Shown piece after piece: positions 1,551-48,670 of a stretch of 64,000 nucleotides of DNA. The stretch covers positions 3,144 through 67,143 of the forward strand of contig JACRFI010000009.1 in the NCBI GenBank assembly GCA_016217965.1. Reading direction: 5' to 3'. The position numbers and the translations under genes are program-made. The notes under the pieces were generated by a model. It had not been told where the DNA came from and did no database searches. It saw only the letters and a program-made list of their open reading frames with translations. How positions within the stretch are numbered: the first letter of the stretch is position 1; every line of letters begins with the position of its first letter. The stretch comes from Candidatus Kaiserbacteria bacterium (GTDB taxonomy: Bacteria > Patescibacteriota > Minisyncoccia > Phycocordibacterales > UBA2100).

Positions 1551-1590
1551 CGACCAAAAAAGAAAAACCCTCTTTCAATCCCTATCCACA

Positions 1591-2317: not shown

Positions 2318-2332
2318 GGTTACCCTATGTAT
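2310..2332. repeat. REP-like 23-bp palindrome, copy 3, overlapping the rayT stop
   Basis: ATACATAGGGTTACCCTATGTAT, identical to copy 1. Confidence 0.8.
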
Positions 2333-2368
2333 TTGCCTTGGATTTCGTGCTTCAAATTTCGGATTTTT

Positions 2369-8082: not shown

Positions 8083-8138
8083 AGTACCACACCGCCTTCC
8101 GCATAGAGAGCGATGAGAAAAAATGCTACATTCTTAAA
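8083..8138. promoter_or_regulatory. Divergent promoter region between the ligase-like gene and the C-methyltransferase operon
   Basis: 56-bp AT-richer spacer between divergent start codons (contains TAAAAT). Confidence 0.25.
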
Positions 8139-32177: not shown

Positions 32178-32278
32178 ACCAATATTACGAAACTCGTCGA
32201 AGGCACACGTATTTTTGGCGGTATGAGCAACTCCTCCGTCAAAAATACGTGTGCCGAGAAAGAGTTTCGTAGTTCATA

Positions 32279-33559: not shown

Positions 33560-33562
33560 ACT

Positions 33563-34153: not shown

Positions 34154-34154
34154 A

Positions 34155-35165
34155 TCAGGCTTCGAAGACTTCGTACTTTTCAGAGGGTCTAGTAAAAATG
34201 ATCTGGCTCCCCTTTGTTTCAAACCGAAAAGGAACGCATAGAAGCTCCTTGAGCGCCGTACGGACTGCACTTCTTTTTTCTCTAGGAACAAAGAAAAGCA
34301 TAAATCCGCCGCCGCCTGCGCCAAGTATCTTTCCGCCAATAGCCCCTGCTGCTCGGCCTCTCTCGTAGATCGAATCAAGGTGATCATTCGTCACTACAGA
34401 GGAAAGTCCGCGCTTCAGCATCCATCCTTCGTGGAGAAGTTCGCCGAAGTCAGTGAGCCTCCCGCGAGGCTCCAAGATGCGCTTCCCCTCATCTACCATT
34501 GCCTGCATTCTTCGCAGCTCTGCTGCTTTCTTAGGGATTGCTTTAATTTGTTTCCCTGCGATGTCTGAAGCACGACGGGAAAATCCGGTAAAAAAGAGAA
34601 GAAGATGGTCCTCAAGATCGTGAACGCGTTTCTTTGAGATATCGATGGGCGATACTTTTATTCCACCCTTCCCGCCAAAAGTTATCTTGTTGAGGCCCCC
34701 GAACGCTGCCGCCACTTGGTCCTGAGAGCCTACGTTCTCTTTGATGCGCTTCTGCTCTACATAGATGGCATCGTCGGCAAGCTTTTTCTTTGTAGTGTGC
34801 TCATCGCGGAGAGCTTGGAGCCCATGCAGAAGCCCTACAGTAAATGAAGAACTTGAGCCAAGTCCTGACATCGCAGGAAGATCGGCAGTATGCATGATTT
34901 CCACGCCGTCCTTAAAATGCAGAAACTTCAAGCTCTCTCGCACTGCTGGGTGCTCAATGTCGTCGTGTACTGTTGTATTTTCGTTTATCGCATATCGTAC
35001 CCTGTACCGATATTCAAAAAAAGGCGGAAAGTGGCGAAGTATAAGGTAACAGTACTTGTCGATAGATCCAGAGAGAACAGCTCCTCCATGGTTCTGGTAC
35101 CAGGCCGGGTAATCAGTCCCTCCTCCAAAAAAGGAAATACGAAACGGGGTACGCGTGATCACCAT
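34155..35165 (-). CDS. hddA: D-glycero-alpha-D-manno-heptose 7-phosphate kinase-like GHMP kinase (HddA family)
   Basis: MVITRTPFRISFFGGGTD N-terminus and the GHMP motif GLGSSSSF. Confidence 0.8.
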   Translation of the reverse strand: MVITRTPFRISFFGGGTDYPAWYQNHGGAVLSGSIDKYCYLILRHFPPFFEYRYRVRYAINENTTVHDDIEHPAVRESLKFLHFKDGVEIMHTADLPAMSGLGSSSSFTVGLLHGLQALRDEHTTKKKLADDAIYVEQKRIKENVGSQDQVAAAFGGLNKITFGGKGGIKVSPIDISKKRVHDLEDHLLLFFTGFSRRASDIAGKQIKAIPKKAAELRRMQAMVDEGKRILEPRGRLTDFGELLHEGWMLKRGLSSVVTNDHLDSIYERGRAAGAIGGKILGAGGGGFMLFFVPREKRSAVRTALKELLCVPFRFETKGSQIIFTRPSEKYEVFEA

Positions 35166-35168
35166 AGG

Positions 35169-36185
35169 TCAATCGCGCGTGAAGTGGTCACGCCAATAGT
35201 TGAGCGTATCTTCAATTGTCTTTGAGAAAGGAATGGTTGATTTCCAGCCGGTCGCCTTTTCAAATTTCTTGTTGGAAGGAATCTGGAGCGTAACGTCGGA
35301 CGGGCGCAGCCGGGCAGGATCAACTTGCACTTTGATGTTCTTAACCTTTGAGAGCGCAAGTAATTTTTTTACCATTTCGCCTATGGTCATCGTCTCGTTG
35401 CCTCCGATGTTATACACCTCGCCTGGTGGACACGTGTGCACCATTGTCCAATATGCCTCGACAGCGTTTCGCACGTCCATGAATGTCCGGATACTGTCCA
35501 GATTCCCGACTTTAAGGACCGGCTTCTGCTTGCCCGCTTCGATCGCTGCTACTTGCTTCGCGAAATTTGAGAGCGCGAACACTTCTCCGCGACGCGGACC
35601 AGTGTGTGTGAACATCCGCGTGCGGATCGTCTTTATCTTCCAGGATAACCAGTACTGCAGTCCTAACATATCCTCCGCAACCTTCGAGACTGCATAGGGA
35701 GAGGCAGGACGGAAAGAATTGTTTTCTGTAATGGGAACCTCGTCCTTCCGCACTTGGCCGTACACTTCGGAAGAAGAGCAAATATGGATTGTGGGATCGT
35801 ACCAAGTCTCAGCTTTTAATGCCCGCACTGCCTCAAGGAGTGTTGCGGTGCCGATGACATTTGTTTGGAGTGTTGCAAGAGGCGCAGCAAAGCTAAAGTC
35901 CACATATGATTGTGCCGCGAGATGAAAAATAAATTCCGGCCTATGTTTTGCGAGCACTGCATGAACTGACGGAAAATCGGTAAGGTCCCCGTACTCGATG
36001 GTGACTTTATCGAGGATATGTTTGATGTTGTCCTTGGGCGATCTCCAACGCGCAAAACCTACAATGGTATATTCCGGCGCCTTCGCGAGAATATAGTCCG
36101 CTAAATGGCTGCCCACAAATCCTGTGAGCCCTGTTATCACGACCGTACGCTTCTTGCTACCTGCCTTTTTACGCATCGCCCACAC
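35169..36185 (-). CDS. GDP-mannose 4,6-dehydratase family enzyme (Gmd/DmhA-like; likely GDP-heptose 4,6-dehydratase)
   Basis: ITGLTGFVGSHL and PRRGEVFALSNFAKQ...GNLDSIRTFMDV match conserved Gmd blocks. Confidence 0.7.
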   Translation of the reverse strand: MWAMRKKAGSKKRTVVITGLTGFVGSHLADYILAKAPEYTIVGFARWRSPKDNIKHILDKVTIEYGDLTDFPSVHAVLAKHRPEFIFHLAAQSYVDFSFAAPLATLQTNVIGTATLLEAVRALKAETWYDPTIHICSSSEVYGQVRKDEVPITENNSFRPASPYAVSKVAEDMLGLQYWLSWKIKTIRTRMFTHTGPRRGEVFALSNFAKQVAAIEAGKQKPVLKVGNLDSIRTFMDVRNAVEAYWTMVHTCPPGEVYNIGGNETMTIGEMVKKLLALSKVKNIKVQVDPARLRPSDVTLQIPSNKKFEKATGWKSTIPFSKTIEDTLNYWRDHFTRD

Positions 36186-36209: not shown

Positions 36210-37121
36210 CTAAACATGCCTTTCGTGCCACGCAATCGTCGCGCGAAGGCCTGTTTCGAGATCAACAAGCGGAGTCCATCCAAGTTCCTTTTTTGCGCGG
36301 CGTATGTCCGCAACGACCCTATCAGGCCGCTCTGCAACACTTTCAAATTGCATCACCCCCTCATACCCAATGATCTTACCGATAAGAAGCGCAAGGTCAC
36401 GGATGGAGACTTCAATCCCTGAGGCTATATTAAGCGGCGTATCGGAATCGTAGCTCTCAGCTGCAGCAAGGATAGCCCTTGCCGCGTCTTCAACGAAGAG
36501 AAAATCTCGCGTTGACGCACCCCCTTGTTCGAGGAGTTGCGGCTTGTCCTCACGTTTTGCGGCTGCGATTTTCTTTATGAGTTTGGGGATCACGAAATCA
36601 TCCCTCTCTCCTGGGCCATACATGCTTGCAAGGAGTAGATGTGCGCTCTCTAATCCCTGCGCGCGTTGCTTTTTCGCTTCGAGAAGGATTTCCCGTTTCG
36701 CGCGGGCATATGCCGCGTGCTGGGGCTTTGGGTCTCCGCTCCACAAAGAATCTTCAGAGAGGGGCAACGCAGCATCCATCCCGTACTCTGTAAGGCTCCC
36801 TGCCATAACAAACTTCTCGGCTCCGCTTTCCCGCGCAGCACCGAGCATATTCATTCCCATCAGAAAATTGTCTTCATAGATGCGATTGGCGTTATCGCGA
36901 TGAAAAAGAATGCCACCTGTAATGCCGGCAAGATGAATAATGATGTGCGCTCCGCGAACCGCTTCCCTCGCTGCTTCTTTTGTCCGCAGGTCTCCTTTCT
37001 CACTCGAGTGCAATGCGATATTTTTTTCAGGAACGCCAATGGACTGCAAGCGCGCACATACGGCACGCCCTACAAATCCGCGTGCGCCTGTGAGGAGGAT
37101 TTTTTTATCACGCAGTTCCAT
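36210..37121 (-). CDS. GDP-sugar 3,5-epimerase/4-reductase (GDP-L-fucose synthase Fcl/WcaG-like)
   Basis: LLTGARGFVG and Fcl-like architecture. Start at the internal ATG (MELRDKK). Confidence 0.65.
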   Translation of the reverse strand: MELRDKKILLTGARGFVGRAVCARLQSIGVPEKNIALHSSEKGDLRTKEAAREAVRGAHIIIHLAGITGGILFHRDNANRIYEDNFLMGMNMLGAARESGAEKFVMAGSLTEYGMDAALPLSEDSLWSGDPKPQHAAYARAKREILLEAKKQRAQGLESAHLLLASMYGPGERDDFVIPKLIKKIAAAKREDKPQLLEQGGASTRDFLFVEDAARAILAAAESYDSDTPLNIASGIEVSIRDLALLIGKIIGYEGVMQFESVAERPDRVVADIRRAKKELGWTPLVDLETGLRATIAWHERHV

Positions 37122-37131
37122 GTCTTCTATG

Positions 37132-37959
37132 CTATATAGCGCGGAGAAAATATCGTGCGAGTCCCACGAAACGCATCGTGCCGTGCAACATAAAGAATGG
37201 AGCCGCGTATGCTTTCCCCGCACGGATCGCTCTCCACGAATACAGAAAGGGATAACGGATAAGGAGATGGAAAAGCATCGACGGCGCCCGATTCGGGTGC
37301 TTTCTGCAAAATTCACCATCTCCTTTGCCGTACATCTGGAATTTCTTTAGGTAAATGCCAAGATCGGCAAAGTGGTGCTGGACCACTTTCGTTTTGCCCA
37401 CGCCAACTCGAAGTTCCGGAAATTTTGAGAGCCGATACATGAAATCGGTGTCATCAACGGTCGATGTTAGGCTGTCGTTAAATCGTACTTTTTTGAATAC
37501 GCTCTTTTTATAGATGGATGGCGCCGTGCTTATCATCGTTCGCGGCCCGGGCGCATTCTGCGTCAATTCCCACAACGCACCTTCTGCTCTGTGCCAATAT
37601 CCAGTATCAGAAGATGATACGAGGCCGGCCTGCACAATATCCAAATCGTATTCCACCATATCTTTGTACAACGCCTCCAAGTCCTCCTTTTTTAAGCGAT
37701 GGTCTCCATCGATCATCGCAACAAGCTCATTTCTAGCCGCATCAATACCGATCTGCCTATCGCGCGTGAGATTTGAGTTCTTGCTTACGATGGTGTGGAT
37801 GCCGGGGAATTCTCGCGCAATTGCAACCGTCTTGTCGGAAGAATTCCCATCAACAAGGATAACCTCGTCAGGGTTATTTGCATATACGCCAACGAGGCAA
37901 TCGCGTATGCGCTTCTCTTCATTGCGCACGCACACGACAACAGATAGTTTCTCTCCCAT
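37132..37959 (-). CDS. GT2 glycosyltransferase
   Basis: LSVVVCVRNEEKRI, DGNSSD, DGD motifs. Confidence 0.75.
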   Translation of the reverse strand: MGEKLSVVVCVRNEEKRIRDCLVGVYANNPDEVILVDGNSSDKTVAIAREFPGIHTIVSKNSNLTRDRQIGIDAARNELVAMIDGDHRLKKEDLEALYKDMVEYDLDIVQAGLVSSSDTGYWHRAEGALWELTQNAPGPRTMISTAPSIYKKSVFKKVRFNDSLTSTVDDTDFMYRLSKFPELRVGVGKTKVVQHHFADLGIYLKKFQMYGKGDGEFCRKHPNRAPSMLFHLLIRYPFLYSWRAIRAGKAYAAPFFMLHGTMRFVGLARYFLRAI

Positions 37960-37960
37960 A

Positions 37961-38728
37961 TTAGATTCCCTTTGAATCATGATCAGGAGGCCTCTGCACA
38001 ATATTTTTATTTATGAGAACGATGTCCGGGCGCGTTCGTAGGAATGTCACAACGTCGAGCGTAGAAAAATCGGGGTTTGTCGGATACAGCGCTTCGTATA
38101 CCGATCTAATCATGTCGTAATCCTCTTTCGTATCGAGCGTGACCCGAAGGTCCGGCCATACGAGAGTAGCCGTAGCCTGTATCGAGCCCACTTTAAATTT
38201 TTCTCGCTGAGAACGAATGGAATACCCTGCGTGTTCGCGGAGTGCCCTTTCGGTATCAACTTCTGCGGCCTTCACCAAGACGGGGAAGGCATACACGCGC
38301 ATCCCAATGCCTATAGGAAATGTCTTATCCAGTTCGCTGTCGGTACAATCGTAACCACCCTCCTCTAGAAGCTCGACGAGTTGGTCTACAAAACGCCAGT
38401 CGATCAAGGGATCGTCAGACATGCCCTGCACGAGAATATCGGCGCCGTGTTCTTTGCCCGCTGCGACGATGCGGCCGAGCACATCTTCCTCGCTGCCACG
38501 GAATACCGAGCAGCCTATTCTTTTGCAGAGTTCTTCGATCGCGTCGTCGGCAGCATTTGTGGTCGTCGCAACAACAACTTCGTCAGTCAATCTACTCCTC
38601 CGATGCCGTTCTACCACATGCTCGAGGACCGGCTTCCCTGCCATGGGAAGCAGCACTTTTCCGGGCAGCCGCGTCGATGTCATGCGTGCCTCGATGGTTG
38701 CAACGACTTTTTTGCCGTTACTTACCAT
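37961..38728 (-). CDS. Cytidylyltransferase of the CTP_transf_3 family (SpsF/CMP-NulO synthetase-like)
   Basis: VATIEARMTSTRLPGKVL, ~255 aa; resembles B. subtilis SpsF and PseF. Confidence 0.7.
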   Translation of the reverse strand: MVSNGKKVVATIEARMTSTRLPGKVLLPMAGKPVLEHVVERHRRSRLTDEVVVATTTNAADDAIEELCKRIGCSVFRGSEEDVLGRIVAAGKEHGADILVQGMSDDPLIDWRFVDQLVELLEEGGYDCTDSELDKTFPIGIGMRVYAFPVLVKAAEVDTERALREHAGYSIRSQREKFKVGSIQATATLVWPDLRVTLDTKEDYDMIRSVYEALYPTNPDFSTLDVVTFLRTRPDIVLINKNIVQRPPDHDSKGI

Positions 38729-39935
38729 AGAACGCTATCGTGTTTTTCAGAATCTTCGCCTGCCTTTCTGCCCTCGCCCAATCCCAGTAGTTCGTTTTAA
38801 ACGCGAGGATTTGGGGCTGTATTTTTTCGGCAACGGGGCACAAGCCGATCTGCCACGGCTGGTGCTTGTGTTTGTATATTTCTCCAAGAACTTTCTCCTT
38901 CCCCCCGAGATTTCTCGTTGGTTTTTGGAACATGGGCTCAAGGTAGGAGAGTTTCCACGTCGCATAAATGCCATCGCCGCCAAGCTCCATGAACTTTTTT
39001 CGAAACAGGACCCATTCTATCGAAGGATCAACAAGCCGCACCGGAAAGGCCCAATAGGAATGCGTCGCGTACGCTGGTGTCTCTTGGACCTTCAGCCACG
39101 AACAATCCCCGATCGCCTCCATAAACAGCTCCGCAACATCGATGCGCCGATCTGCAAGTTCATCGAGGTGTTCGAGCTGCCCTAGCGCGACGGCGGCACA
39201 CAGCTCTGGCATGCGATAGTTGAAACCCATCTGGACATGCCGGTTATAATTCGGATTTTGTATATCATCTTTTTTCACAATACCCTTCGCGCGCGATAAG
39301 CTCGCATAGCCGAGTCCTCCGAAGCGGCGCACCGCATCAGCGAGCTTTGGGTCGTTCGTGCACACGACCCCTCCTTCACCCCCCGTCATATGCTTTGTCG
39401 ACTGCAAGCTGAAGCTGGACATCTGTCCTATGGTCCCCACCATGCGTCCCTTGTATTTTGCCAAATAACATTGCGCATCGTCCTCAATGACAACTAGATT
39501 ATGCTTCTTGGCGATAGCCATGATCTTGCCGATATCTGGAGAAAGGCCATATAAAGCAACCGGCATGATTGCTTTTGTGCGGGGCGTAATGCATTTCTCA
39601 ATTGAAGCGGGGTCGATTTGAAATGTTCCCTCCACGACATCGGCAAATACGGGCATCGCATCTGCTTGAAGTATCGCCATGCATGTCGCCGACATTGTAA
39701 GAGGAGTTGTTATGACTTCATCCCCGGCGCGCACGCCTGCGGCAAAAAGCGCAGAATGGAGAGATGCCGTTCCGTTCACCTGAGCAACGGCATACTTGGT
39801 GCCTACCTTTTTTGCGAATTCCTTTTCAAATCGTCCGAGTATCCCGCTGTTCTTCGAATTAGAGAAATCTGTCGCGAGGACTTCCTCGACATACCTACGC
39901 TCCGCTTTGCCGATACGGCGGATCTTTTTCTTCAT
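38718..39935 (-). CDS. DegT/DnrJ/EryC1/StrS-family aminotransferase (SpsC-like)
   Basis: NGTASLHSAL and ...LQSTKHMTGGEGG. Confidence 0.85.
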   Translation of the reverse strand: MKKKIRRIGKAERRYVEEVLATDFSNSKNSGILGRFEKEFAKKVGTKYAVAQVNGTASLHSALFAAGVRAGDEVITTPLTMSATCMAILQADAMPVFADVVEGTFQIDPASIEKCITPRTKAIMPVALYGLSPDIGKIMAIAKKHNLVVIEDDAQCYLAKYKGRMVGTIGQMSSFSLQSTKHMTGGEGGVVCTNDPKLADAVRRFGGLGYASLSRAKGIVKKDDIQNPNYNRHVQMGFNYRMPELCAAVALGQLEHLDELADRRIDVAELFMEAIGDCSWLKVQETPAYATHSYWAFPVRLVDPSIEWVLFRKKFMELGGDGIYATWKLSYLEPMFQKPTRNLGGKEKVLGEIYKHKHQPWQIGLCPVAEKIQPQILAFKTNYWDWARAERQAKILKNTIAFYGK

Positions 39936-39971
39936 TGCTGCAGGATACCATCGGCCTTCCCTCCCTGCCAC

Positions 39972-41024
39972 TCAAGCGCGTATGCCGTACATTGACCGCA
40001 ATTTCTTAAGTTGCGGCAAGAACTTCTTTGTGTTTTTTAAAAGGGATCCCCTCCCATCCGCAATACCGATAATGGCACGTGGTTTTCGTATGTCATCAAC
40101 AATTATTTCTCCGTATCCGCCGAGGAGACCGAGAGAAACGAGCCGTATGTTATGCCCTTTGATGGAACGGCGGCCAAGTGATTTTCCATAGTGTGCAGCC
40201 GTTTCGAGCAATGCAGAGAAGTTGTGTTTCTGGACCATTGATACGTCGATGCGATACACCACGTACTGCCCCCCTTTCGTTACGTCGCTTCGAAAACATC
40301 CCTTTCCGACATCGATGAGAATGGGCGCAGCGCTTCTATCCAATTCCTTGAGATGCTCACCTCCAATAATGCCGCGCGAATCCGCTGCTGCGATAACTGC
40401 GTTTGCCCCCTTACAGGCGTCTTTGATGCTTTTCGCTGCGCTGATTGGGGAAATTGTGTGTTCCGATTTAATGAGATTGAGGCCGGCTACAATAGTTTTT
40501 AACTTTTTCTGGTCGCGGCGATAGCCTCGCACATATGCACCGCGCTCCACGAGCTTCAACGCGATCTTGGCGCCGATGTTGCCAAACCCTATGACCGCGA
40601 TGTTCTTTCCCCCAACATCACCCGGTATCTGCCCCAAAAGAAAATCAATAGCCTCGACCGTGAGGTCATTGCCTTTGTACGTGACGATAGTCGATTTGCC
40701 CACTGCTTGCCGGACATGCCGCTCAATATTGCCGACATCATTTCTCCCATAATATAATTTCTCGACCTTCTTTTCTGAATCCAGAATGATGTAATCAACC
40801 TTGCCATCCACCATTCTCGCTATCCGGACTGCCGTAGAAACATCGCGGACGATAACCCCGCCATATACAAGCGTGTGTGTTTCCCGTAGCGGCGTCTCGT
40901 AATATCTGCCGCGCTCGAAGAGCCCGGAGGTGTTGCCTATCACAAATCCAGTTGGCCGCCTTCCTGCCCGCGCCTTCACATTTTTTACTATTCTCTCTAC
41001 CTTTTTCTGCATACCAGGCTGCAC
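39972..41024 (-). CDS. NAD(P)-binding Rossmann-fold oxidoreductase, function unknown
   Basis: GxGxxG motif IAVIGFGNIGAKIALKL. No further family assignment possible. Confidence 0.45.
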   Translation of the reverse strand: MQPGMQKKVERIVKNVKARAGRRPTGFVIGNTSGLFERGRYYETPLRETHTLVYGGVIVRDVSTAVRIARMVDGKVDYIILDSEKKVEKLYYGRNDVGNIERHVRQAVGKSTIVTYKGNDLTVEAIDFLLGQIPGDVGGKNIAVIGFGNIGAKIALKLVERGAYVRGYRRDQKKLKTIVAGLNLIKSEHTISPISAAKSIKDACKGANAVIAAADSRGIIGGEHLKELDRSAAPILIDVGKGCFRSDVTKGGQYVVYRIDVSMVQKHNFSALLETAAHYGKSLGRRSIKGHNIRLVSLGLLGGYGEIIVDDIRKPRAIIGIADGRGSLLKNTKKFLPQLKKLRSMYGIRA

Positions 41025-41025
41025 G

Positions 41026-43440
41026 CTAGATACTATCCCACTCTATTGGATGGTCTTTTTGTATCGCCCTCTTTGCGCGCCTGCCGATGACTATATCAAT
41101 ATATTTTGGGAGCACCCCACCACCCGGCCCTTTCACGGCAAGCATGTTCCTCGTTATTTTCTCTTCTTTTTTAATATCAACGGCAGCATACAAGCTCTTC
41201 TTGAAACGATTGATCGTCTCGCGCTCGCTCCCAAGTATCACCTTTTGAGGAGATCCTTTGATAGCAGGAATAAGATTGCTAAGCCGTACGAGTTCCTTCA
41301 TCTCTTCCGGGTCCGACGAAAGTATATGGTCCGGCCCCTCCATGAACCTATCCAATGTAAAATGGCGCTCTATGACTCGGGCGCCGAGGGCGAGGGCAAC
41401 CGATGCTGCGGTAAGTCCTATAGAATGGTCCGAGAATCCAACCGGAACTCCAAATGCCTTTCGGAGAGTTCCCATCACTTCCAAATTCATGTCCTGTGGC
41501 GCCGCAGGGTAGCTTGAGACGCAGTGGAGCAATATGAGATTTTTGTTCCCCGAATCTCGGACGACGTTCACCGCATCTTCAATTTGCCCGAACGTCGACA
41601 TGCCGGTCGAGATAATGAGCGGCTTCCCGGTCTTTGCAACTTTTTTGATGAGCGGCAGATTCACAAGGTCCATTGATGAGATCTTGTAGAACTGGACGCC
41701 GAGAGATTCGAGGAGGTCCACGCTCTTCTCATCGAAAGGCGTCGAGAAGATCTCGATGCCTTTTTTCTTCGCGTGCGCAAACATCGCCTCGTGGTCTTCT
41801 TTGCGCAGCTCGAGCCGAGATAGCATGCTGTGCGTCGACTCTTCGAGCTCTATTAATTCCTCCGCATACCGATTGCCCTTCACTTTCTTAGAAACCCGGC
41901 CGCTTGCTTCGTAGGTTTGGAACTTGACCGCACTGCAGCCAACCTCTTTTGCCTTGTCTATAAGTTCGAGCGCCAAGGCAAGGCTTCCATTATGGTTAAG
42001 CCCGGCTTCCGCAATAATGAACGCAGGATTCTCCGACGATACGACGTGCTTCCCGAGCCTGACCGATTGGTTAAATGAGAATGCCGTGTCCTCCTTGATA
42101 AGCTCGCGACTCTCCTCTCTCTCTTCCGAGGCGAGCCTTTCTGCGAGATCAGTCCCGCGAATATAAAGGATCTGCAAGTCGTCATATCGAAAGTCGCCCC
42201 CTGTCCCGATGCAGTAAAGCTGCTTGAAGCTGGCCAGGCGGCTACGCACCTCGACAAGCTCCGGCTCGCTTCCTCGCACAAGAAGCGGATATACGTACGG
42301 CAGCGAGACTACTGTTGCAGCTTCTAGTTCATCTTCCTTAGCGAGCCCAACTTTGACGATGTCCCGCATCGCGCGCTCTTGTATTTTTTTCGAATCAGAG
42401 GCATCGAGCGAATCTCCCTTTGTGTATGCTATCTCACAGGTAAGGACCGTCTTGTCCTTGGGAAATCCGTTAGCACAGAATTTCTTTTGCTCGCTCACAC
42501 GGTGGAAGAGTATGTCCGGTGCATCGTAGTAGAGGAAATTTGCTTTGCCGGGGATTGCTTCGCGCTTCTTAAGGGCAACAAACACCAATTTCGCACCTCG
42601 ATACCCGAGCGTATTTCTGATGCCAAGCTGTTTTGTGAGTTGCGGAATTGGGATGGTCGAGACGATCGTGTCATGAGGCGAGAGGGCGATCTTTTTTTTG
42701 CCCATCTCTACCCTGCTGATGATGCCATTTGAATGCGTAAAACCCGTCACTGCTGTTTTTAGAAGAAGTGTTCCACCGGCTTTCTTGAATTTCTCTGCCA
42801 TGCGCTCTAACACCTTGCCCGAGCCGTATTTTCCGACGGCACTCCACTGCCCCGCGTGAAAATGTTCATCACTTGTCCTAAATGTCACGCGCTTTGGAGC
42901 CCAGTTTGCGGTCATTTTTCCTATCGGCACGCCCCACAACTTCTGCGGATACCGAATAAAGAAATATTCCATGAGGGTCGGGCCCACCAACTCGCGGACA
43001 TATTCAGCATAGCTTTTTGCCCGCGCCCGGCGAGATTCGTCTAGGCGAGATAGCTCATGCACTATCTTTTTGCGCATCTCCGATGGGAATTTCTTTAAAG
43101 ACTCGAATGAAAGTGGGTAGTCGAAATACTGGTCGAATTTCTCGCCCTTAACATTCTTTCCCCAGAATTCGTTCTTGTGGAACAGGTCGCCATATTCTCT
43201 CTCCCATATTTCTTCCATCTTTTTGTCGGGAGTGTGGTAAATGTGCGGGCCGTAGTCGAGGTGTTTGAATTCCCTCCACGAGAAACTCCCCGCGAGCCCG
43301 CCGACCGCGGCCTCCTTTTCAATGAGGGTGGTTTTGACACCCAACTCCGCGAGCCGAAGTGCCGTTGCAAGCCCACTCATGCCCGCCCCAAGTACATACA
43401 CTTTTTTGGCCTGAGGAGAGTCCGCTTTCCGGCGATTCAT
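41026..43440 (-). CDS. Fusion protein: N-terminal UDP-galactopyranose mutase-like FAD enzyme (~430 aa) + C-terminal NeuB/SpsE-like nonulosonic acid synthase (~370 aa)
   Basis: N-terminus: VYVLGAGMSGLA (FAD GxGxxG), YGPHIYHT (compare Glf YGAHIFHT), C-terminal GGDFRYDDLQ (compare Glf GRLAEYKYYDMDQ). C-terminus: FIIAEAGLNHNGS, KFQT and SAF domain. Single uninterrupted 804-aa ORF. Confidence 0.75.
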   Translation of the reverse strand: MNRRKADSPQAKKVYVLGAGMSGLATALRLAELGVKTTLIEKEAAVGGLAGSFSWREFKHLDYGPHIYHTPDKKMEEIWEREYGDLFHKNEFWGKNVKGEKFDQYFDYPLSFESLKKFPSEMRKKIVHELSRLDESRRARAKSYAEYVRELVGPTLMEYFFIRYPQKLWGVPIGKMTANWAPKRVTFRTSDEHFHAGQWSAVGKYGSGKVLERMAEKFKKAGGTLLLKTAVTGFTHSNGIISRVEMGKKKIALSPHDTIVSTIPIPQLTKQLGIRNTLGYRGAKLVFVALKKREAIPGKANFLYYDAPDILFHRVSEQKKFCANGFPKDKTVLTCEIAYTKGDSLDASDSKKIQERAMRDIVKVGLAKEDELEAATVVSLPYVYPLLVRGSEPELVEVRSRLASFKQLYCIGTGGDFRYDDLQILYIRGTDLAERLASEEREESRELIKEDTAFSFNQSVRLGKHVVSSENPAFIIAEAGLNHNGSLALALELIDKAKEVGCSAVKFQTYEASGRVSKKVKGNRYAEELIELEESTHSMLSRLELRKEDHEAMFAHAKKKGIEIFSTPFDEKSVDLLESLGVQFYKISSMDLVNLPLIKKVAKTGKPLIISTGMSTFGQIEDAVNVVRDSGNKNLILLHCVSSYPAAPQDMNLEVMGTLRKAFGVPVGFSDHSIGLTAASVALALGARVIERHFTLDRFMEGPDHILSSDPEEMKELVRLSNLIPAIKGSPQKVILGSERETINRFKKSLYAAVDIKKEEKITRNMLAVKGPGGGVLPKYIDIVIGRRAKRAIQKDHPIEWDSI

Positions 43441-44562: not shown

Positions 44563-45375
44563 TTATTTCTTAGCCAGCGCACAGAGCGCGAGGCCTGCGC
44601 CGGAAGCGTCCTCCGTCTCCGATACATCAGCTAGTTCTTTGGGAGATGAGACACGAGTCCAGCCCTCCGGCGTGTTCTTGAAAAAGAGTTCTTCTGCGAC
44701 ACTGAAGCGCGCGTCCCCCACAAGCTCATTCCAACTCTTCTCCTCGTATTCCCACTCAGAAAAATAAAATCCGAGGCTGTCTTTCATGATTATTGGCCCA
44801 CCCTTTCCCATCGGGACCGTGATGAGCGCCTTTCCGCCCTTCCTCAGCGCTACATGGAAATTGTTCAGCACCTTTCTATTCACTTCCGTGTCACGAGATG
44901 TGTGCACGTCCTCCTTCTTCCGAGGCCTTTCGAACGCGCTTCCCTCTACACTCGTCGAGGGCGCATCGTATCCAATGTGCTCTATGGTTGATATGCACGT
45001 CACGACATCATACTTCTCGTTGGGCAGCTGCATCGAACGTATATCTCCTATCATGATGGGAACCGAAAGAATATCTTCTAACCATTCAGTCGGATACCGA
45101 GATTGAACGCTCTCCGGCTTGATAATGTCCGCAGCTTCGAGCATTACGCCATATTTCTTTTTCGCCTCAAGCAGCATGCCAAGACAGTCTTTGCTCCCGA
45201 GGCTGATGCCAATATCAAGGAGTGTGTCTCCCTTTTTTATGTGAGACGCTATCCAAGGAACTTCGATAGAACGTGACGTCCATCCTTTTCCTCGGAAGCC
45301 AGATGATTCAAACTTTCTCTTCCCACCCAATATCTCCTTTGCCTCTTCAAGGCTCGCTGTTTCTTCTGGATTCAT
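44563..45375 (-). CDS. Putative methyltransferase-like protein (divergent class I MT fold)
   Basis: LLDIGISLGS, D-x-x-x-x-T-C-I-S-T-I-E-H. Start placed at the internal Met so the gene does not overlap the conserved hairpin repeat. Confidence 0.4.
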   Translation of the reverse strand: MNPEETASLEEAKEILGGKRKFESSGFRGKGWTSRSIEVPWIASHIKKGDTLLDIGISLGSKDCLGMLLEAKKKYGVMLEAADIIKPESVQSRYPTEWLEDILSVPIMIGDIRSMQLPNEKYDVVTCISTIEHIGYDAPSTSVEGSAFERPRKKEDVHTSRDTEVNRKVLNNFHVALRKGGKALITVPMGKGGPIIMKDSLGFYFSEWEYEEKSWNELVGDARFSVAEELFFKNTPEGWTRVSSPKELADVSETEDASGAGLALCALAKK

Positions 45376-45379
45376 CGCG

Positions 45380-45422
45380 GAAGTATACCCCCACACCTTT
45401 TAGAATAAAAGGTGTGGGGGTA
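45380..45422. repeat. 43-bp hairpin repeat (copy 2 of 2), identical to 13335-13377
   Basis: GAAGTATACCCCCACACCTTTTAGAATAAAAGGTGTGGGGGTA. Confidence 0.85.
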
Positions 45423-45434
45423 GCCTCGCGCTTG

Positions 45435-46850
45435 CTATTCCTTTCCTATACGCTCAAGCGCCGATCGCGCAAATGCTTTCATTTCCTCCTCCAGGCTCAT
45501 GCGCAGCACCTTATCACCCACGTTCGTGCGCACCCCAACAGTTTCGAGTGCCTTTAGAAATGCAAGTGCGCCCTCTTTCGTGACTTTTTTTCCCGCCTTC
45601 ACCTCTTCAAAGATCCGCTCGCAATCCTCGACGCTCTGCACTCGCACGACTCCCGGGCAGTCCCGGTACCACACAGCACCGAAGATGAGCGCATGCTTCC
45701 CCCGCACCACTGCCTCCACACCAACGCTGCCCGTGATCGTCGCGACTGCCAGGGACGCTTCGACAAGTTGCCGCACTGGCATATTCGTCGGAACCAGGCG
45801 TACGCGAGGAATGGCAGCAAGGCGACGATAGTAACCTCTGTAACGCGCGCTGCTGTAACGTGTTTTAGTGCGCAAGAGCCACTGCGACGGATGCTCCTTT
45901 ATGTAGAGCTCCCATCCTTCAGGCAGAGCTGCTGCAAGAGTCTCAGCTGCCAATATTTGGTCATGGAATACTCCTCCTTGCGGAGAAGAGCTTCTCTCTG
46001 GCTGGAAGTTGAGCGCAAAAAAGACGAACGGCTTCGTCAGGTCTGCCGGCCGCACCACGTCTCGATATTCACTGCGAAGATCTTTCACGACTGATCGGCT
46101 CACGAAATTCCAAACGAGCGGAAGAAGCGTGCCATTGCGGAGCGCCCGCAAGGCAGCAAAAAAACGGATGCGTGCCAGCGTAAAACCGGCTGCTCGGGCT
46201 TTTTGGTCTTGTATATACCAAATAGGCGTGTCCCCGCGAGATACGATTTCGTTCCAATACGTGTGCATTTCTTCGCCCAAGTCATCCACTGTAATGTTCT
46301 TCTTGAGATTCTCTCGCACCGCAGAAGTAAGTTCTGTATTTCCTTCCCACACATCGCTGTACCCCACGACGCGACCTGCGGCTAACGTCCCCTCAAACAT
46401 CACGCTCCGTATGCCACGAACTTTTGCAAGTTCCCACACCACATTGCTGTAAAGCGAATGGGGCACGTCGTTAAAAACGAGTGCATCAGGCTTCAATCTA
46501 TCGAGAACAGCGCTCCAGTAACTGAGCATCGTGTAGTAGACGTGTTTTCTTTCATCGACAGGCGCACCGTCGTAGTGTTTGTTCATCATCGTCAGGATTT
46601 CTGACTCTAGCCGATACATCGAGGCAATATCGTGCGCGTTCGGAGGAAAAAATACCTCATCCTTGTATGCCTCCGCTGGCTTCGCGTCCCACGCATCGTA
46701 GTGGTCATGGAACACAGTGCCTTTTGGTGTGAGGTGCGACACGGAATGCTCGCCCACCCAGTACACGATCTCGTGTCCGGCGTTCTCGATCTCGTCAAGC
46801 AGAACTTTTATTTCAGGGAGAGAGGTCGGCCAAACGAGCAGTATCTTCAT
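45435..46850 (-). CDS. Capsule_synth family protein (KpsS/KpsC-like), paralog 2
   Basis: ITGSVGVEAVVRGKHALIFGAVWYRDC, KEHPSQ, KPFVFFALNFQPE. Confidence 0.5.
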   Translation of the reverse strand: MKILLVWPTSLPEIKVLLDEIENAGHEIVYWVGEHSVSHLTPKGTVFHDHYDAWDAKPAEAYKDEVFFPPNAHDIASMYRLESEILTMMNKHYDGAPVDERKHVYYTMLSYWSAVLDRLKPDALVFNDVPHSLYSNVVWELAKVRGIRSVMFEGTLAAGRVVGYSDVWEGNTELTSAVRENLKKNITVDDLGEEMHTYWNEIVSRGDTPIWYIQDQKARAAGFTLARIRFFAALRALRNGTLLPLVWNFVSRSVVKDLRSEYRDVVRPADLTKPFVFFALNFQPERSSSPQGGVFHDQILAAETLAAALPEGWELYIKEHPSQWLLRTKTRYSSARYRGYYRRLAAIPRVRLVPTNMPVRQLVEASLAVATITGSVGVEAVVRGKHALIFGAVWYRDCPGVVRVQSVEDCERIFEEVKAGKKVTKEGALAFLKALETVGVRTNVGDKVLRMSLEEEMKAFARSALERIGKE

Positions 46851-46852
46851 GG

Positions 46853-48670
46853 CTATTGGTTGATAGAATAGACTTTGAAAAAGTACGACGCGGGATCTGC
46901 AAGAAGTTTTGATGGCGCTCCAGTTTCTACTACACGCCCATCCTTGAGGACAATGAGCTCGTCAGAATCCATGATCGTGGAAAGGCGGTGCGCGATCGCA
47001 ATAATAGTAAGGTGACCTTTCAGCTCCTCGATAACTCGCTTGATGTGGGCTTCCGCTTCGTTGTCGAGCGCACTCGTCGCCTCGTCGAGTATGAGAAGCT
47101 TGGGTTTCCGCGCCAACGCCCTTGCGATAACAATACGTTGGCGTTCGCCGGCAGAGAGCTTTATGCCGCGCTCGCCGACCAGAGTTTCAAGGCCGTCTTT
47201 GCAGCGCGAGATAAAATCATCAATGTGCGCCAGGCGTGCTGCCTCCCAAATATCTTCATCTGACACCGACTCGTCGTAGAAACAGATATTGTTGCGGATC
47301 GTGTCCTGAATGAGGAACAACTCTTGCGATACGTACGCGATATGCCGGCGCCAATCGTCAAGCGCTATCGTGCGGCTATCAACGCCGTCGAGCGTCACGG
47401 CGCCACTCGTGGGTAGGAGGAGCCGCAAGATGAGATCCACTGTCGTCGTTTTTCCAGAGCCCGATGGCCCCACGATGCCTACCATGCTTCCTTTTTTGAT
47501 CTCGAAGGAGGTGTCTTTCAGAACTTCTCGTCCCGATTCGTACGAAAAAGTAACGTGTTCGAATGCAAGCGCTCTCTCGAAAGAGAAAGGTGCGTCCCCG
47601 CTCGAGGGCTCGGGTGATCGCTGGGCAGTTTGTTCGTACTCAATGATGCGCGAAAGATGTGGGGCCAGCTCGCTCATATACTGCAGGTTGTTCTGCATCT
47701 GCTGCACATAGGTGAAAATGCGATAAATGAGATAGAGGACTGCGGGAAGCGCTGCAAACGTGATGAACGGAGTCTTGAATGCGAGAGCGAGGATGAGCGC
47801 AATATAGATGACTCCGATAGGCGCAACTATCTGCGATGCAACTTGCTGGAACATCTGGATGCGGAGCGAGTGAGCACGTATTTCTTCGAACAATCCCTCC
47901 CCCTTTTGTATCGCGCTCGCTTCCGCGCCGTATGCCTTCACTGTCTTAAGCCCGCCGACATGCTCGGTGACATGGTGCAAGGTGTCGCGGAAAACAACGG
48001 TGCGCAGCGTGGACGCTCGGTGTACCCGGTCCATAAGAGGCCTCAGTGTTACAAACGTGAGAAGCCCGAGAACGATGGTCGAGAGCGTTACGACCGGCGA
48101 GATAGAGAACGCAACGATAAGGTACATGATGAGGCTCGTGACGAGGGTGATAGAGAATACTATCTTTGTGAGAAGCGCGGTCGCGGACGGCACATCTATC
48201 ATGAGCGCCGTCTCAAGGTTGCCAAGCTTCTGTTTGAGAAGGTATGGCCACGAGGCCGAGAGGACCATCCCGAATAATTTCGAACGTGTCGTCCGCTCAT
48301 ATTCCATAGTGATGACCGCTTGTATGTACGTGAGAAGCAGCATCACGGCAGACTTGCCAATGAATAGAATGACGATAAGTGCAAGCATGTACCGTGGCAC
48401 GAACGGGACATGTATGAATGCAAAGAAATCTTTCAAGAGGAGCGACAGCGAATCCGTCGCCGCATTTTGCATGCCAAGAGCCGAGCTGAGAAGTGGGATG
48501 ACGGCGTTGATGCCAATGCCCTCCAAAATACCGCTGAGGAACCCCAGAAGCGTTAGAACTACTATCTGCGTCCGATACGGCCTGTACGCCTTCATCGCGA
48601 GGCGAAGGATCGACAACATCTGCCGGTATATATGGGCTGGTTCCGCCTTCATTGGAGTAAACCCTAGCAC
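46853..48670 (-). CDS. ABC exporter, fused permease + ATPase (MsbA/lipid or glycan exporter type)
   Basis: 6-TM N-terminal domain, Walker A GPSGSGKTT, signature LSAGERQRIVIARAL, Walker B ILDEATSALD. Confidence 0.9.
   Translation of the reverse strand: MLGFTPMKAEPAHIYRQMLSILRLAMKAYRPYRTQIVVLTLLGFLSGILEGIGINAVIPLLSSALGMQNAATDSLSLLLKDFFAFIHVPFVPRYMLALIVILFIGKSAVMLLLTYIQAVITMEYERTTRSKLFGMVLSASWPYLLKQKLGNLETALMIDVPSATALLTKIVFSITLVTSLIMYLIVAFSISPVVTLSTIVLGLLTFVTLRPLMDRVHRASTLRTVVFRDTLHHVTEHVGGLKTVKAYGAEASAIQKGEGLFEEIRAHSLRIQMFQQVASQIVAPIGVIYIALILALAFKTPFITFAALPAVLYLIYRIFTYVQQMQNNLQYMSELAPHLSRIIEYEQTAQRSPEPSSGDAPFSFERALAFEHVTFSYESGREVLKDTSFEIKKGSMVGIVGPSGSGKTTTVDLILRLLLPTSGAVTLDGVDSRTIALDDWRRHIAYVSQELFLIQDTIRNNICFYDESVSDEDIWEAARLAHIDDFISRCKDGLETLVGERGIKLSAGERQRIVIARALARKPKLLILDEATSALDNEAEAHIKRVIEELKGHLTIIAIAHRLSTIMDSDELIVLKDGRVVETGAPSKLLADPASYFFKVYSINQ

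What the first reader, a model, noticed from the sequence alone, without database searches (positions are those of the whole stretch)
41026..43440. UDP-galactopyranose-mutase-like flavoenzyme fused to a NeuB-type nonulosonic acid synthase
A single 804-aa ORF joins a Glf/UGM-like FAD domain (GxGxxG, YGPHIYHT, GGDFRYDD) to a complete NeuB/SpsE-like synthase with SAF domain. UGM-family enzymes act on nucleotide-sugars (pyranose/furanose ring contraction, or flavin-dependent redox) and NeuB-family enzymes condense PEP with a free hexosamine, so a covalent fusion of the two is not a recognised architecture. It sits at the head of an sps-like operon (cytidylyltransferase, aminotransferase, oxidoreductase, GT2), which suggests a modified route to a 9-carbon keto-sugar, possibly channelling an unusual sugar straight into the synthase. 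There is no homopolymer at the junction, so a sequencing-error fusion is unlikely.
Basis: partly seen in the sequence, partly recalled or inferred. Interest (0 to 1): 0.8.

Follow-up and report, generated by a model that had tools for sequence, protein, structure and literature searches.

The report
UGM-like flavoenzyme fused to NeuB synthase
A real, widely conserved but unstudied two-domain enzyme joins a flavin domain built like UDP-galactopyranose mutase to a sialic-acid-type synthase and always travels with a third unknown NAD-binding protein, pointing to an undescribed route to sialic-acid-like surface sugars in many uncultured and marine bacteria.

Summary
The 804-aa ORF (41026-43440, minus strand) is real and is not an assembly artefact. 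Full-length homologues occur in at least 102 species-representative genomes, including Patescibacteria, Elusimicrobia, Omnitrophota, Nitrospirota, Magnetococcales, SAR11/SAR116/SAR86, cultured Arcobacter and Rheinheimera, and a few archaea. The N-half has the UGM fold (TM 0.78-0.80) and invariantly keeps the UGM His-loop, both diphosphate-binding arginines and most nucleotide-contact aromatics. It still scores far below the true-UGM model. The C-half is a catalytically intact NeuB+SAF, but the Arg314 position is an invariant Gly. New here: a ~350-aa NAD(P)-binding protein with no family of its own and no close solved relative (window 39972-41024) lies next to the fusion in most loci, and one marine protein fuses all three. 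Cytidylyltransferase, aminotransferase, SDRs and an ABC exporter recur. No NeuC/LegG/PseG-type sugar-releasing enzyme or N-acetyltransferase recurs. Best reading (about 0.4): the flavin domain takes an NDP-sugar, expels NDP by flavin-N5 chemistry and passes the open-chain sugar to NeuB, replacing the missing hydrolase. Rivals are a genuine ring-contraction mutase or redox chemistry. I found no paper describing it.

The parts
41026..43440 (-). Whole fusion gene, 804 aa: UGM-like FAD domain + linker + NeuB + SAF
   Evidence: ORF; domains; exact database match and more than 100 full-length homologues
42130..43410 (-). N-terminal UGM-like flavin domain (aa 11-437): GxGxxG at 18-23, His-loop GPH66-I-Y-H69, FF160/161-x-x-Y164-x-x-x-x-W169, K183-R184, R314-x-x-E317-x-K319, Y384-P385, Y419-x-D421
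   Evidence: AF2 model pLDDT 89.8. Foldseek top hits are A. fumigatus and T. cruzi UGM, TMq 0.78-0.80. Profile against PDB gives TcUGM E 6e-23 over the full length. Invariant columns. KpUGM contact list in PMC3624792 Table 3
42025..42129 (-). Acidic, low-confidence linker (aa 438-472) between the two halves; no homopolymer in the DNA
   Evidence: pLDDT below 50 for aa 441-452; sequence; poorly conserved alignment columns
41251..42024 (-). NeuB TIM-barrel domain (aa 473-730) with the conserved catalytic motifs AE478AG, K506-F-Q508, YK586IxS, SDH672, ERH693F and GPD704H
   Evidence: Pfam NeuB 3e-89; TIGR03569 375 bits and TIGR03586 308 bits, both below the equivalog cutoffs; alignments to SpsE, PseI and NmNeuB
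41032..41196 (-). SAF/antifreeze-like domain (aa 749-803); the NmNeuB Arg314 position is an invariant Gly771 within K-G-P-G-G-G
   Evidence: Pfam SAF
39972..41024 (-). Obligate partner: 350-aa NAD(P)-binding protein from an unnamed family (D82-x-E-K-K, K117-G-N-D, G146-x-G-N-x-G151, G240-K241, R258-x-D260)
38718..39971 (-). DegT/LegC/PseC-type PLP aminotransferase
   Evidence: Pfam 1e-79; LegC-family 202 bits and PseC 193 bits, both below cutoff; an aminotransferase (DegT or class III) occurs in 35 of 49 loci
37961..38728 (-). CTP_transf_3 cytidylyltransferase (SpsF/KdsB-like)
   Evidence: a CTP_transf_3 gene occurs in 35 of 49 loci
37132..38001 (-). GT2 glycosyltransferase
36210..37121 (-). 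Fcl-like extended SDR (NDP-4-keto-6-deoxysugar epimerase/reductase type); start taken at Met67 of the listed ORF
35169..36185 (-). NDP-sugar 4,6-dehydratase (generic: scores similarly to the dTDP-Glc, GDP-Man and LegB models)
31593..35165 (-). Possible precursor supply: HddA-like GHMP kinase (34155-35165), GmhA (33563-34387), C-methyltransferase (32279-33559) and GmhB (31593-32177)
   Evidence: GmhB passes its cutoff; a GHMP kinase recurs in 10 of 49 loci. Whether these genes feed the fusion is inferred only
44563..48670 (-). Upstream same-strand genes that recur with the fusion elsewhere: MsbA/HepA-like ABC exporter (46853-48670), 471-aa Capsule_synth-like protein (45435-46850, probable ulosonate transferase) and a methyltransferase-like protein (44563-45396)
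   Evidence: ABC exporter in 27 of 49 loci; Capsule_synth also in L091

Best explanation
The gene encodes a genuine bifunctional enzyme of a non-canonical ulosonic (sialic-acid-like) sugar pathway. It works as a unit with the adjacent 350-aa NAD(P)-binding protein. Proposed mechanism: neighbouring enzymes (nucleotidyltransferase, 4,6-dehydratase, reductase or aminotransferase) build an NDP-sugar. The N-terminal domain binds it as UGM does. Its reduced flavin N5 attacks C1 and expels NDP, giving the ring-opened flavin-iminium sugar adduct that is established for UGM. Instead of re-closing to a furanose and recapturing NDP, the adduct is hydrolysed, possibly after C2 epimerisation through the enamine. 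This releases the free acyclic aldose beside the C-terminal NeuB domain, which condenses it with PEP to a 3-deoxy-2-ulosonic acid. In this reading the flavin domain takes the place of the NeuC/LegG/PseG sugar-releasing step that every characterised bacterial nonulosonic-acid pathway needs. The partner then oxidises or reduces the acid or its precursor. The CTP_transf_3 enzyme activates the product as a CMP-sugar, and the Capsule_synth-like/GT2 enzymes and the ABC exporter install it on the surface. Shown here: the architecture, the fold, the conserved active-site residues, the three-part linkage and the gene context. Inferred: the substrate, the hydrolytic outcome, the order of steps and the partner's reaction.
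For: (1) The fusion is conserved down to 28% identity in the N-half across more than 10 phyla, so the linkage is under selection. (2) The N-half has the UGM fold. The following are invariant in the family: H66 = KpUGM H60 (flavin stacking), F161/Y164 = F152/Y155 (uracil stacking), W169 = W160, R184 = R174 and R314 = R280 (diphosphate), Y384 = Y314, and Y419 = Y349 (residue roles from PMC3624792 Table 3). So it very probably binds an NDP-sugar at the flavin N5. (3) UGM chemistry passes through a covalent, ring-opened flavin-iminium sugar (PMC3624792 and PMC7662398). That is one hydrolysis step away from the acyclic aldose NeuB uses (the NeuB substrate form is from my own knowledge). (4) No Epimerase_2 or PseG-type hydrolase and no N-acetyltransferase appears in the window, in 7 Pfam-annotated neighbourhoods from other phyla, or in the 20 recurrent neighbour families that I annotated (most of those present in at least 4 of the 80 loci). 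One Epimerase_2 was found in 80 loci (L079). (5) L085 is a minimal cluster: NTP_transferase, 4,6-dehydratase-type SDR, the fusion, an RmlD-like SDR and a CMP-transferase. That is everything needed except a sugar-releasing enzyme. (6) The triple fusion UGM-like+NeuB+partner never includes the cytidylyltransferase. This suggests the three activities are consecutive and precede CMP activation. (7) Domain order (flavin N-terminal, synthase C-terminal) matches the proposed reaction order. (8) Gly replaces NmNeuB Arg314 and acetyltransferases are absent, which fits an unusual, non-N-acetylated aldose.
Against: There is no biochemical evidence of any kind. No UGM-family member is known to me to act as a hydrolase. 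The closest standalone relatives sit in classic mutase contexts, next to GT2s and after NTP-transferase, dehydratase and reductase genes, so the ancestral and simplest function is ring contraction. The missing hydrolase could instead be explained by a sugar-phosphate route, as for Kdo, animal Neu5Ac and Bacteroides Kdn (my knowledge): GmhA, GmhB, HAD and GHMP-kinase genes are nearby in the window and in some other loci. A hydrolase could also be encoded elsewhere in the genome, which was not checked. The role of the near-universal partner is unexplained by this model. Protoporphyrinogen oxidases match the fold almost as well (TM 0.73). Two UGM contacts differ (N270 to Tyr, Y185 to His/Pro). 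Neighbourhood gene calling used a crude ORF caller.
Confidence: 0.4

Rival explanations
1. The N-half is a true pyranose-to-furanose mutase. Either it makes an NDP-furanose that goes into the same glycan as the ulosonic acid, so the fusion reflects co-regulation and stoichiometry rather than consecutive steps. Or it ring-contracts the CMP-activated 5-hydroxy ulosonic acid to a furanosyl donor.
For: The UGM fold and the full set of NDP-binding and catalytic residues are conserved. Standalone relatives at 29-30% identity lie in mutase-type contexts beside GT2 genes. The Pfam GLF match passes its cutoff. The lack of the Arg314 equivalent and of acetyltransferases is compatible with a 5-OH (Kdn-like) acid that could form a furanose.
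Against: A strict fusion conserved across more than 10 phyla, with a third partner that is also fused in P0143, is hard to explain for non-consecutive steps. The CMP-transferase that would have to act between NeuB and a CMP-sugar mutase is never part of the fusion. L084 has the fusion plus partner with only one glycosyltransferase, a GT2 about 4 kb away. This model leaves the sugar-release step unaccounted for. The TIGR00031 UGM equivalog score is 50.7 against a cutoff of 303.75.
Confidence: 0.25
2. The N-half performs net redox chemistry like its amine-oxidase/protoporphyrinogen-oxidase cousins. It might oxidise an amine or alcohol to the aldehyde that NeuB condenses, or dehydrogenate the product. 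The NAD(P) partner would supply or remove the reducing equivalents or carry out the paired redox step, by analogy with Kdo8N formation by an oxidase plus a transaminase.
For: The Pfam Amino_oxidase match (51 bits) is stronger than the GLF match (29.9 bits). The PRK07208 'hypothetical protein' models are the best NCBIfam hits. PPO structures match with TM 0.73-0.74 and Foldseek E-values in the same range as the UGM hits. A dedicated NAD(P) oxidoreductase partner and an aminotransferase co-occur. The DpaA-type similarity of the partner recalls a Rossmann protein paired with a flavoprotein.
Against: The residues that are invariant are exactly the UGM nucleotide-diphosphate and flavin-N5 set, which has no role in amine oxidases or PPO. 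UGMs are the best sequence hits in PDB by many orders of magnitude. An aldehyde-generating oxidase would not need diphosphate-binding arginines.
Confidence: 0.12
3. The flavin domain is a non-catalytic NDP-sugar-binding module (regulatory, or for scaffolding and oligomerisation) attached to an otherwise ordinary NeuB that uses a sugar or sugar phosphate made elsewhere.
For: The NeuB half is catalytically complete on its own. Sugar-phosphate enzymes (GmhA, GmhB, GHMP kinase) are nearby in the window.
Against: Invariance of the His-loop, the FAD-binding motifs and both catalytic arginines over a very wide divergence is typical of an active enzyme. Degenerate domains usually lose such residues.
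Confidence: 0.05
4. The ORF is an artefactual fusion of two genes, caused by a frameshift or misassembly.
For: None, apart from one error-prone long-read contig (L092) in which the same gene appears broken into pieces.
Against: The same architecture is found in more than 100 independent assemblies, including complete genomes (NZ_CP090177, CP136340) and single-cell genomes. The reading frame is continuous with a conserved linker length, and there is no homopolymer at the junction.
Confidence: 0.01

Closest known systems
UDP-galactopyranose mutase (Glf/UGM; e.g. K. pneumoniae 1WAM/3GF4, T. cruzi 4DSG, A. fumigatus 3UKH) and its specificity variants (C. jejuni UNGM 4MO2; dTDP-fucopyranose mutase Fcf2, from memory)
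   Same: Three-domain flavoenzyme fold (TM 0.78-0.80). GxGxxG motif and His-loop. Both diphosphate-binding arginines, the uracil-stacking aromatics, W160, Y314 and Y349 are conserved. The substrate is presumably an NDP-sugar.
   Different: Only 17-21% identity. Fails the UGM equivalog model (50.7 against 303.75 bits). N270 is Tyr and Y185 is His/Pro. Covalently fused to NeuB and tied to an NAD(P) partner. The activity is unknown and may not be ring contraction.
NeuB-family nonulosonic acid synthases (NmNeuB 1XUU, B. subtilis SpsE 1VLI, PseI 8H2C, LegI)
   Same: TIM barrel plus SAF domain. Metal-binding His pair and catalytic Glu, Lys and Asp motifs are conserved. E-values about 1e-51 to 2e-54.
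   Different: Below both the NeuB and PseI equivalog cutoffs. The Arg314 position (N-acetyl recognition, from memory; the mutated position in 4IPI and 4IPJ) is an invariant Gly. Carries a 470-aa N-terminal flavin domain.
NeuC / LegG (hydrolysing NDP-HexNAc 2-epimerases) and PseG (UDP-sugar hydrolase)
   Same: Proposed functional analogy only: releasing the free aldose from its nucleotide just before NeuB-type condensation.
   Different: No sequence or fold relationship. The proposed mechanism uses a flavin N5 covalent adduct instead of elimination/hydration or direct hydrolysis. Untested.
Other fusions in sialic-acid pathways: Leptospira NeuB-phosphatase (PMC3438082) and animal GNE epimerase/kinase (from memory)
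   Same: Precedent that consecutive steps around the synthase become fused.
   Different: The fused partner domains are different, and none of them is a flavoenzyme.
B. subtilis sps legionaminic-acid operon and the C. jejuni leg/ptm clusters (from memory)
   Same: 4,6-dehydratase, DegT aminotransferase, NeuB-type synthase, CTP_transf_3 cytidylyltransferase and a GT2.
   Different: No acetyltransferase and no SpsG/LegG-type sugar-releasing enzyme. Extra flavin domain, a new NAD(P) partner, an ABC exporter, a Capsule_synth-like transferase and heptose-phosphate genes.

Membership tests
UDP-galactopyranose mutase (UGM/Glf) | FAD Rossmann motif plus the three-domain UGM fold | tested here: met
   AF2 model pLDDT 89.8. 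Foldseek top hits are UGMs, TMq 0.78-0.80, E about 5e-25. PPOs are close behind at TM 0.73.
UDP-galactopyranose mutase (UGM/Glf) | Histidine loop over the flavin (KpUGM H60/H63, motif GPHxFH) | tested here: met
   G64-P65-H66-x-x-H69 is invariant in 22 diverse fusions and aligns to KpUGM YGPHIFHT.
UDP-galactopyranose mutase (UGM/Glf) | Two diphosphate-binding arginines (KpUGM R174, R280) | tested here: met
   R184 in A-P-K-R aligns to L-K-R174. R314 in F-x-R-x-S-E-x-K-K aligns to Y-T-R280-I-T-E-H-K-Y. Both are invariant. Residue roles from PMC3624792 Table 3.
UDP-galactopyranose mutase (UGM/Glf) | Nucleotide and sugar contact residues F152, Y155, W160, Y185, N270, Y314, Y349, N84 | tested here: inconclusive
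   F161, Y164, W169, Y384 and Y419 are conserved. N270 is replaced by Y304 and Y185 by His/Pro. The N84 equivalence (N96) is off by one in the alignment.
UDP-galactopyranose mutase (UGM/Glf) | Scores above the curated family thresholds | tested here: not met
   TIGR00031 50.7 bits against a cutoff of 303.75. Pfam GLF only 29.9 against 26.3. The best NCBIfam hits are the PRK07208 'hypothetical protein' models, also below cutoff.
UDP-galactopyranose mutase (UGM/Glf) | Catalyses NDP-pyranose to NDP-furanose interconversion with reduced flavin | not testable with these tools
   Needs an enzyme assay.
NeuB-type nonulosonic acid synthase | NeuB TIM barrel followed by a SAF/antifreeze-like domain | tested here: met
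   PF03102 E 3e-89 and PF08666 E 2e-8. PDB hits SpsE, PseI and NeuB at E 1e-51 to 2e-54.
NeuB-type nonulosonic acid synthase | Catalytic and metal-binding motifs (NmNeuB E25, K53, K129, H215, E234, H236, D247; residue roles from memory) | tested here: met
   AE478AG, VK506FQ, YK586I, SDH672, E691-R-H693 and GPD704 align with the NmNeuB motifs and are invariant. NmNeuB E134 aligns to an invariant Asp591.
NeuB-type nonulosonic acid synthase | SAF-domain arginine (NmNeuB Arg314) that contacts the substrate N-acetyl group | tested here: not met
   The position that differs between 4IPI (A) and 4IPJ (K), which is R in SpsE and PseI, is Gly771. It is invariant within K-G-P-G-G-G.
NeuB-type nonulosonic acid synthase | Reaches an equivalog threshold (NeuB, or PseI) | tested here: not met
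   TIGR03569 375.0 against 399.65. TIGR03586 308.1 against 340.25.
Canonical bacterial Neu/Leg/Pse pathway | NDP-sugar hydrolase or hydrolysing 2-epimerase (NeuC/LegG Epimerase_2, or PseG) in the cluster | tested here: not met
   Absent from the window's glycan island, from 7 annotated neighbourhoods and from the 20 recurrent neighbour families annotated. One Epimerase_2 in 80 loci (L079). Whole genomes were not checked.
Canonical bacterial Neu/Leg/Pse pathway | N-acetyltransferase (PseH, LegH, NeuD) | tested here: not met
   No Hexapep or Acetyltransf family appears in the same neighbourhoods (same calls).
Canonical bacterial Neu/Leg/Pse pathway | CMP-activating cytidylyltransferase, 4,6-dehydratase and aminotransferase | tested here: met
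   Window genes at 37961-38728, 35169-36185 and 38718-39971. CTP_transf_3 in 35 of 49 loci and an aminotransferase in 35 of 49 loci.
Flavin amine oxidase / protoporphyrinogen oxidase (PF01593) | Matches the family model and fold | tested here: met
   PF01593 51 bits against a cutoff of 19.8. PPO structures at TM 0.73-0.74. This is superfamily-level only: in PDB sequence searches amine oxidases match only the first ~60-residue dinucleotide-binding motif, and one PPO (3i6d) gives a weak match to the C-terminal part.

The most novel reading that the evidence does not exclude
A widespread three-component module (UGM-like flavin domain, NeuB synthase, new NAD(P) enzyme) is a previously unrecognised way of making ulosonic acids. 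In it, a UGM-type flavin acts as a covalent 'nucleotide-sugar unloader', possibly also a 2-epimerase through the enamine, and hands an acyclic aldose directly to the aldol-type synthase. In lineages that also carry GmhA/HddA/GmhB and a 4,6-dehydratase (as in this window), the substrate could be an NDP-6-deoxyheptose, which would give a ten-carbon ulosonic acid. That would mean a new reaction type for the UGM family, and possibly a new class of surface sugar in SAR11, CPR and other abundant uncultured bacteria.
Probability: 0.3. Interest if true: 0.85.

Novelty: new variant of a known kind. Interest (0 to 1): 0.68.

Why it matters
Nonulosonic acids are key determinants of bacterial surfaces, flagellin glycosylation, phage and host recognition. 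All characterised bacterial routes use the same logic: an NDP-sugar, then a dedicated hydrolase or epimerase, then NeuB, then the CMP-sugar. This family indicates a different, widely distributed solution that includes some of the most abundant marine bacteria (SAR11, SAR116, SAR86) and many CPR lineages. It involves a flavoenzyme class so far known only for ring contraction, plus a completely uncharacterised NAD(P) enzyme family. If the hydrolytic hand-off is real, it adds a new reaction outcome to flavin-N5 covalent catalysis and defines a new pathway marker for genome annotation. These proteins are currently labelled 'FAD-dependent oxidoreductase' or 'N-acetylneuraminate synthase'. Cultured carriers (Arcobacter iocasae KX21116, Rheinheimera sp. 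YQF-1) make it directly testable.

Full report
OBSERVATION. The window carries an 804-aa ORF on the minus strand at 41026-43440. Pfam finds NeuB (aa 493-730, E 3e-89) and SAF (749-803) in the C-half. In the N-half it finds NAD_binding_8, Amino_oxidase (51 bits) and a marginal GLF match (29.9 bits against a cutoff of 26.3). NCBIfam places the C-half just below the NeuB (375 against 399.65) and PseI (308 against 340.25) equivalog thresholds. It places the N-half closest to the PRK07208 'hypothetical protein' models, and the true UGM model scores only 50.7 against 303.75. The junction DNA has no homopolymer. The exact protein is deposited as 'FAD-dependent oxidoreductase [Candidatus Kaiserbacteria bacterium]', so the window comes from a CPR/Patescibacteria genome.

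IS THE FUSION REAL AND HOW COMMON IS IT? The 120 best hits listed in the 5.8-billion-protein search are almost all full-length fusions of 783-841 aa, from 79% down to 47% identity. The few shorter entries (P0014, P0015, P0044) look truncated. The hits come from Parcubacteria, Elusimicrobia, Omnitrophota, Margulisiibacteriota, Thermodesulfobacteriota, Anaerolineales and Pseudomonadota, and JGI names them 'sialic acid synthase SpsE/protoporphyrinogen oxidase'. A scan of one genome per GTDB species found 102 encoding loci. These include Nitrospiraceae, Magnetococcales, SAR11, SAR116, SAR86, Leptospira, complete genomes of Arcobacter iocasae and a Pelagibacterales strain, Rheinheimera sp. YQF-1, and a few archaeal MAGs. 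An exhaustive HMMER search with the N-half alone against 50%-identity representatives returned about 30 separate clusters of 780-830-aa fusions, down to 28% identity. After those came standalone proteins of 420-480 aa. An artefact is excluded. The architecture is common and auto-annotated. No paper in the searchable library mentions it, including a large NulO-synthase phylogeny paper.

THE N-HALF IS UGM-LIKE IN FOLD AND IN ACTIVE SITE. By sequence, the best solved relatives are UGMs (E 2e-11 with the single sequence). With a family profile, T. cruzi UGM aligns over its full length at E 6e-23. An AlphaFold model built on 16 homologues (pLDDT 89.8) superposes best on A. fumigatus and T. cruzi UGM (TMq 0.78-0.80). 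Protoporphyrinogen oxidases follow at 0.73-0.74. I compared 22 fusions spanning 48-78% identity with the published KpUGM contact list (PMC3624792 Table 3). The invariant family residues map as follows:
- H66 = H60 (stacks on the flavin), with H69 = H63
- F161 and Y164 = F152 and Y155 (uracil stacking)
- W169 = W160
- R184 = R174 and R314 = R280 (diphosphate)
- Y384 = Y314
- Y419 = Y349
Two contacts differ: N270 is Tyr304 and Y185 is His/Pro. The nucleotide base, or the way it is gripped, may therefore differ. The domain very probably binds an NDP-sugar against the flavin N5. It is not a member of the UGM equivalog family by score, and its reaction is unknown.

THE C-HALF IS AN INTACT BUT ATYPICAL NeuB. 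Alignments to SpsE, PseI and NmNeuB show that the catalytic and metal-binding motifs are conserved and invariant. The position that differs between PDB 4IPI and 4IPJ is Arg in SpsE and PseI but an invariant Gly771 here (K-G-P-G-G-G). From memory, those two entries are the Arg314 mutants of NmNeuB, and Arg314 contacts the substrate's N-acetyl group. Together with the absence of acetyltransferases (see below), this argues against an N-acetyl-hexosamine substrate.

THE WIDER CASSETTE. Other recurrent neighbours in the 49 complete loci (annotation):
- a 253-aa classical SDR: 31 of 49
- a CTP_transf_3 cytidylyltransferase of SpsF or NeuA type: 35 of 49
- an aminotransferase, DegT or class III: 35 of 49
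- an MsbA/HepA-like ABC exporter: 27 of 49
- extended SDR dehydratases/reductases: 26 of 49
- NTP_transferase: 13 of 49
- aldo-keto reductase: 11 of 49
- GHMP kinase: 10 of 49
- B12-radical-SAM enzymes, C-methyltransferases, GFO/IDH/MocA oxidoreductases and a Capsule_synth-like protein also recur
The window contains the fusion, the partner, DegT, CTP_transf_3 and GT2, followed by an Fcl-like SDR, a 4,6-dehydratase, an HddA-like kinase, GmhA, a C-methyltransferase, GmhB and an AKR, all on the same strand. Upstream lie a methyltransferase-like gene, a Capsule_synth-like gene and the ABC exporter. A compact CPR locus (L085) has only a CMP-transferase, an NTP-transferase, a dehydratase-type SDR, the fusion and an RmlD-like SDR.

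WHAT IS MISSING. Every characterised bacterial Neu/Leg/Pse pathway frees the sugar from its nucleotide with NeuC/LegG (Epimerase_2) or PseG before NeuB acts, and the Leg and Pse pathways also need an N-acetyltransferase (established knowledge). I found no such family in the window, in 7 Pfam-annotated neighbourhoods from other phyla, or among the 20 recurrent neighbour families that I annotated. One Epimerase_2 occurs in 80 loci, in Arcobacter. Whole genomes were not searched.

MECHANISM. UGM uses reduced flavin N5 to displace UDP and form a ring-opened flavin-iminium sugar adduct. NeuB-type synthases act on the acyclic aldose (my knowledge). The most economical reading of these observations is that the flavin domain unloads the NDP-sugar and delivers the open-chain aldose to the synthase. 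The observations are: the strict fusion, the N-to-C domain order, the triple fusion that excludes the cytidylyltransferase, the conserved NDP and flavin-N5 site, and the missing hydrolase. In this reading the adduct is hydrolysed instead of being re-closed, and iminium/enamine chemistry could also invert C2. I put this at about 0.4.

The evidence against this reading is substantial:
- No UGM relative is known to hydrolyse its substrate.
- Standalone relatives sit in classic mutase contexts next to GT2 genes.
- A sugar-phosphate route of the Kdo/Kdn-9-P type would also explain the missing hydrolase. GmhA, GmhB and kinase genes are present in the window.
- The model does not explain why the partner is needed.
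The rivals are a true mutase acting on the NDP- or CMP-sugar (0.25), net redox chemistry of the amine-oxidase/PPO type (0.12), a regulatory domain (0.05), and an artefact (0.01 or less).

NOVELTY AND VERDICT. All the component folds are known, and the overall product class (a CMP-activated ulosonic acid for a surface glycan) is a known kind. The novel parts are the conserved UGM-like::NeuB architecture, its obligate partner from a new family, and the apparent replacement of the canonical sugar-release step. I classify it as a new variant of a known kind. The 'unrecognised architecture' claim needs tempering, because the fusion is common and auto-annotated, though I found no study of it. Interest is 0.68: a specialist would be surprised by the conserved active site in this context and by the triad, and cultured carriers make it testable. 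The mechanism is still inference.

Noticed in passing
L089 (P0143, marine metagenome contig), gene 499-3924: 1,141-aa triple fusion: UGM-like + NeuB + the NAD(P)-binding partner in one polypeptide. Pfam reports no SAF domain for it.
   Followed up: partly
window 60203-62164 (-): 653-aa ORF combining a GT4 glycosyltransferase with a partial UDP-glucose/GDP-mannose dehydrogenase (only profile positions 71-181 of the N domain, plus the central domain). Either an odd fusion or a frameshifted pair of genes.
   Followed up: no
window 36210-37319 (-) and 33563-34387 (-): The listed ORFs are over-extended at the 5' end. The Fcl-like SDR probably starts at Met67 (nt 37121), because the longer ORF overlaps the GT2 gene. 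The GmhA ORF overlaps the GHMP-kinase gene by 232 nt, and its SIS match starts only near aa 100.
   Followed up: partly
L091 5389-7260: A second NeuB+SAF gene fused to an AP_endonuc_2 (xylose-isomerase-like TIM barrel) domain, 623 aa. It lies two genes upstream of the UGM-like::NeuB fusion and is another uncharacterised NeuB architecture.
   Followed up: no
L001 7644-10004: The ABC exporter next to the fusion carries an N-terminal HAD/PNK3P-like phosphatase domain (786 aa). This hints at a phosphorylated intermediate or at coupling of dephosphorylation to export.
   Followed up: no
window 45435-46850 (-): 471-aa protein with only a weak Capsule_synth (KpsS/KpsC-type) match and no NCBIfam hit. 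Relatives recur near the fusion (6 loci, and L091). It is a candidate transferase for the CMP-activated acid.
   Followed up: partly
window ~28000-64000: The fusion lies in a glycan island of about 35 kb with three DegT aminotransferases (28592-29725 +, 38718-39971 -, 51873-53042 -), an rml-like nucleotidyltransferase and dehydratase (55818-56690, 57356-58363), a PMT_2-type membrane glycosyltransferase (53076-54737), at least six GT4 and two GT2 genes, and at least four methyltransferase or methyltransferase-like genes.
   Followed up: partly
L092 (long-read contig, ERZ28548085): The contig is full of frameshifts: CTP_transf_3, 2-Hacid_dh, NeuB and GDP_Man_Dehyd are all split into fragments. 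The apparent 'standalone' 521-aa UGM-like protein P0137 is therefore a broken fusion. This is a caution when using protein lengths from the representative library.
   Followed up: yes
L093 (CP015106.1, complete genome) 8001-9305: A standalone UGM-like relative (29% identity to the N-half) lies after an NTP_transferase and two SDRs and before a GT2. The context resembles the dTDP-fucopyranose-mutase (Fcf2) arrangement and suggests what the fused domain evolved from.
   Followed up: partly
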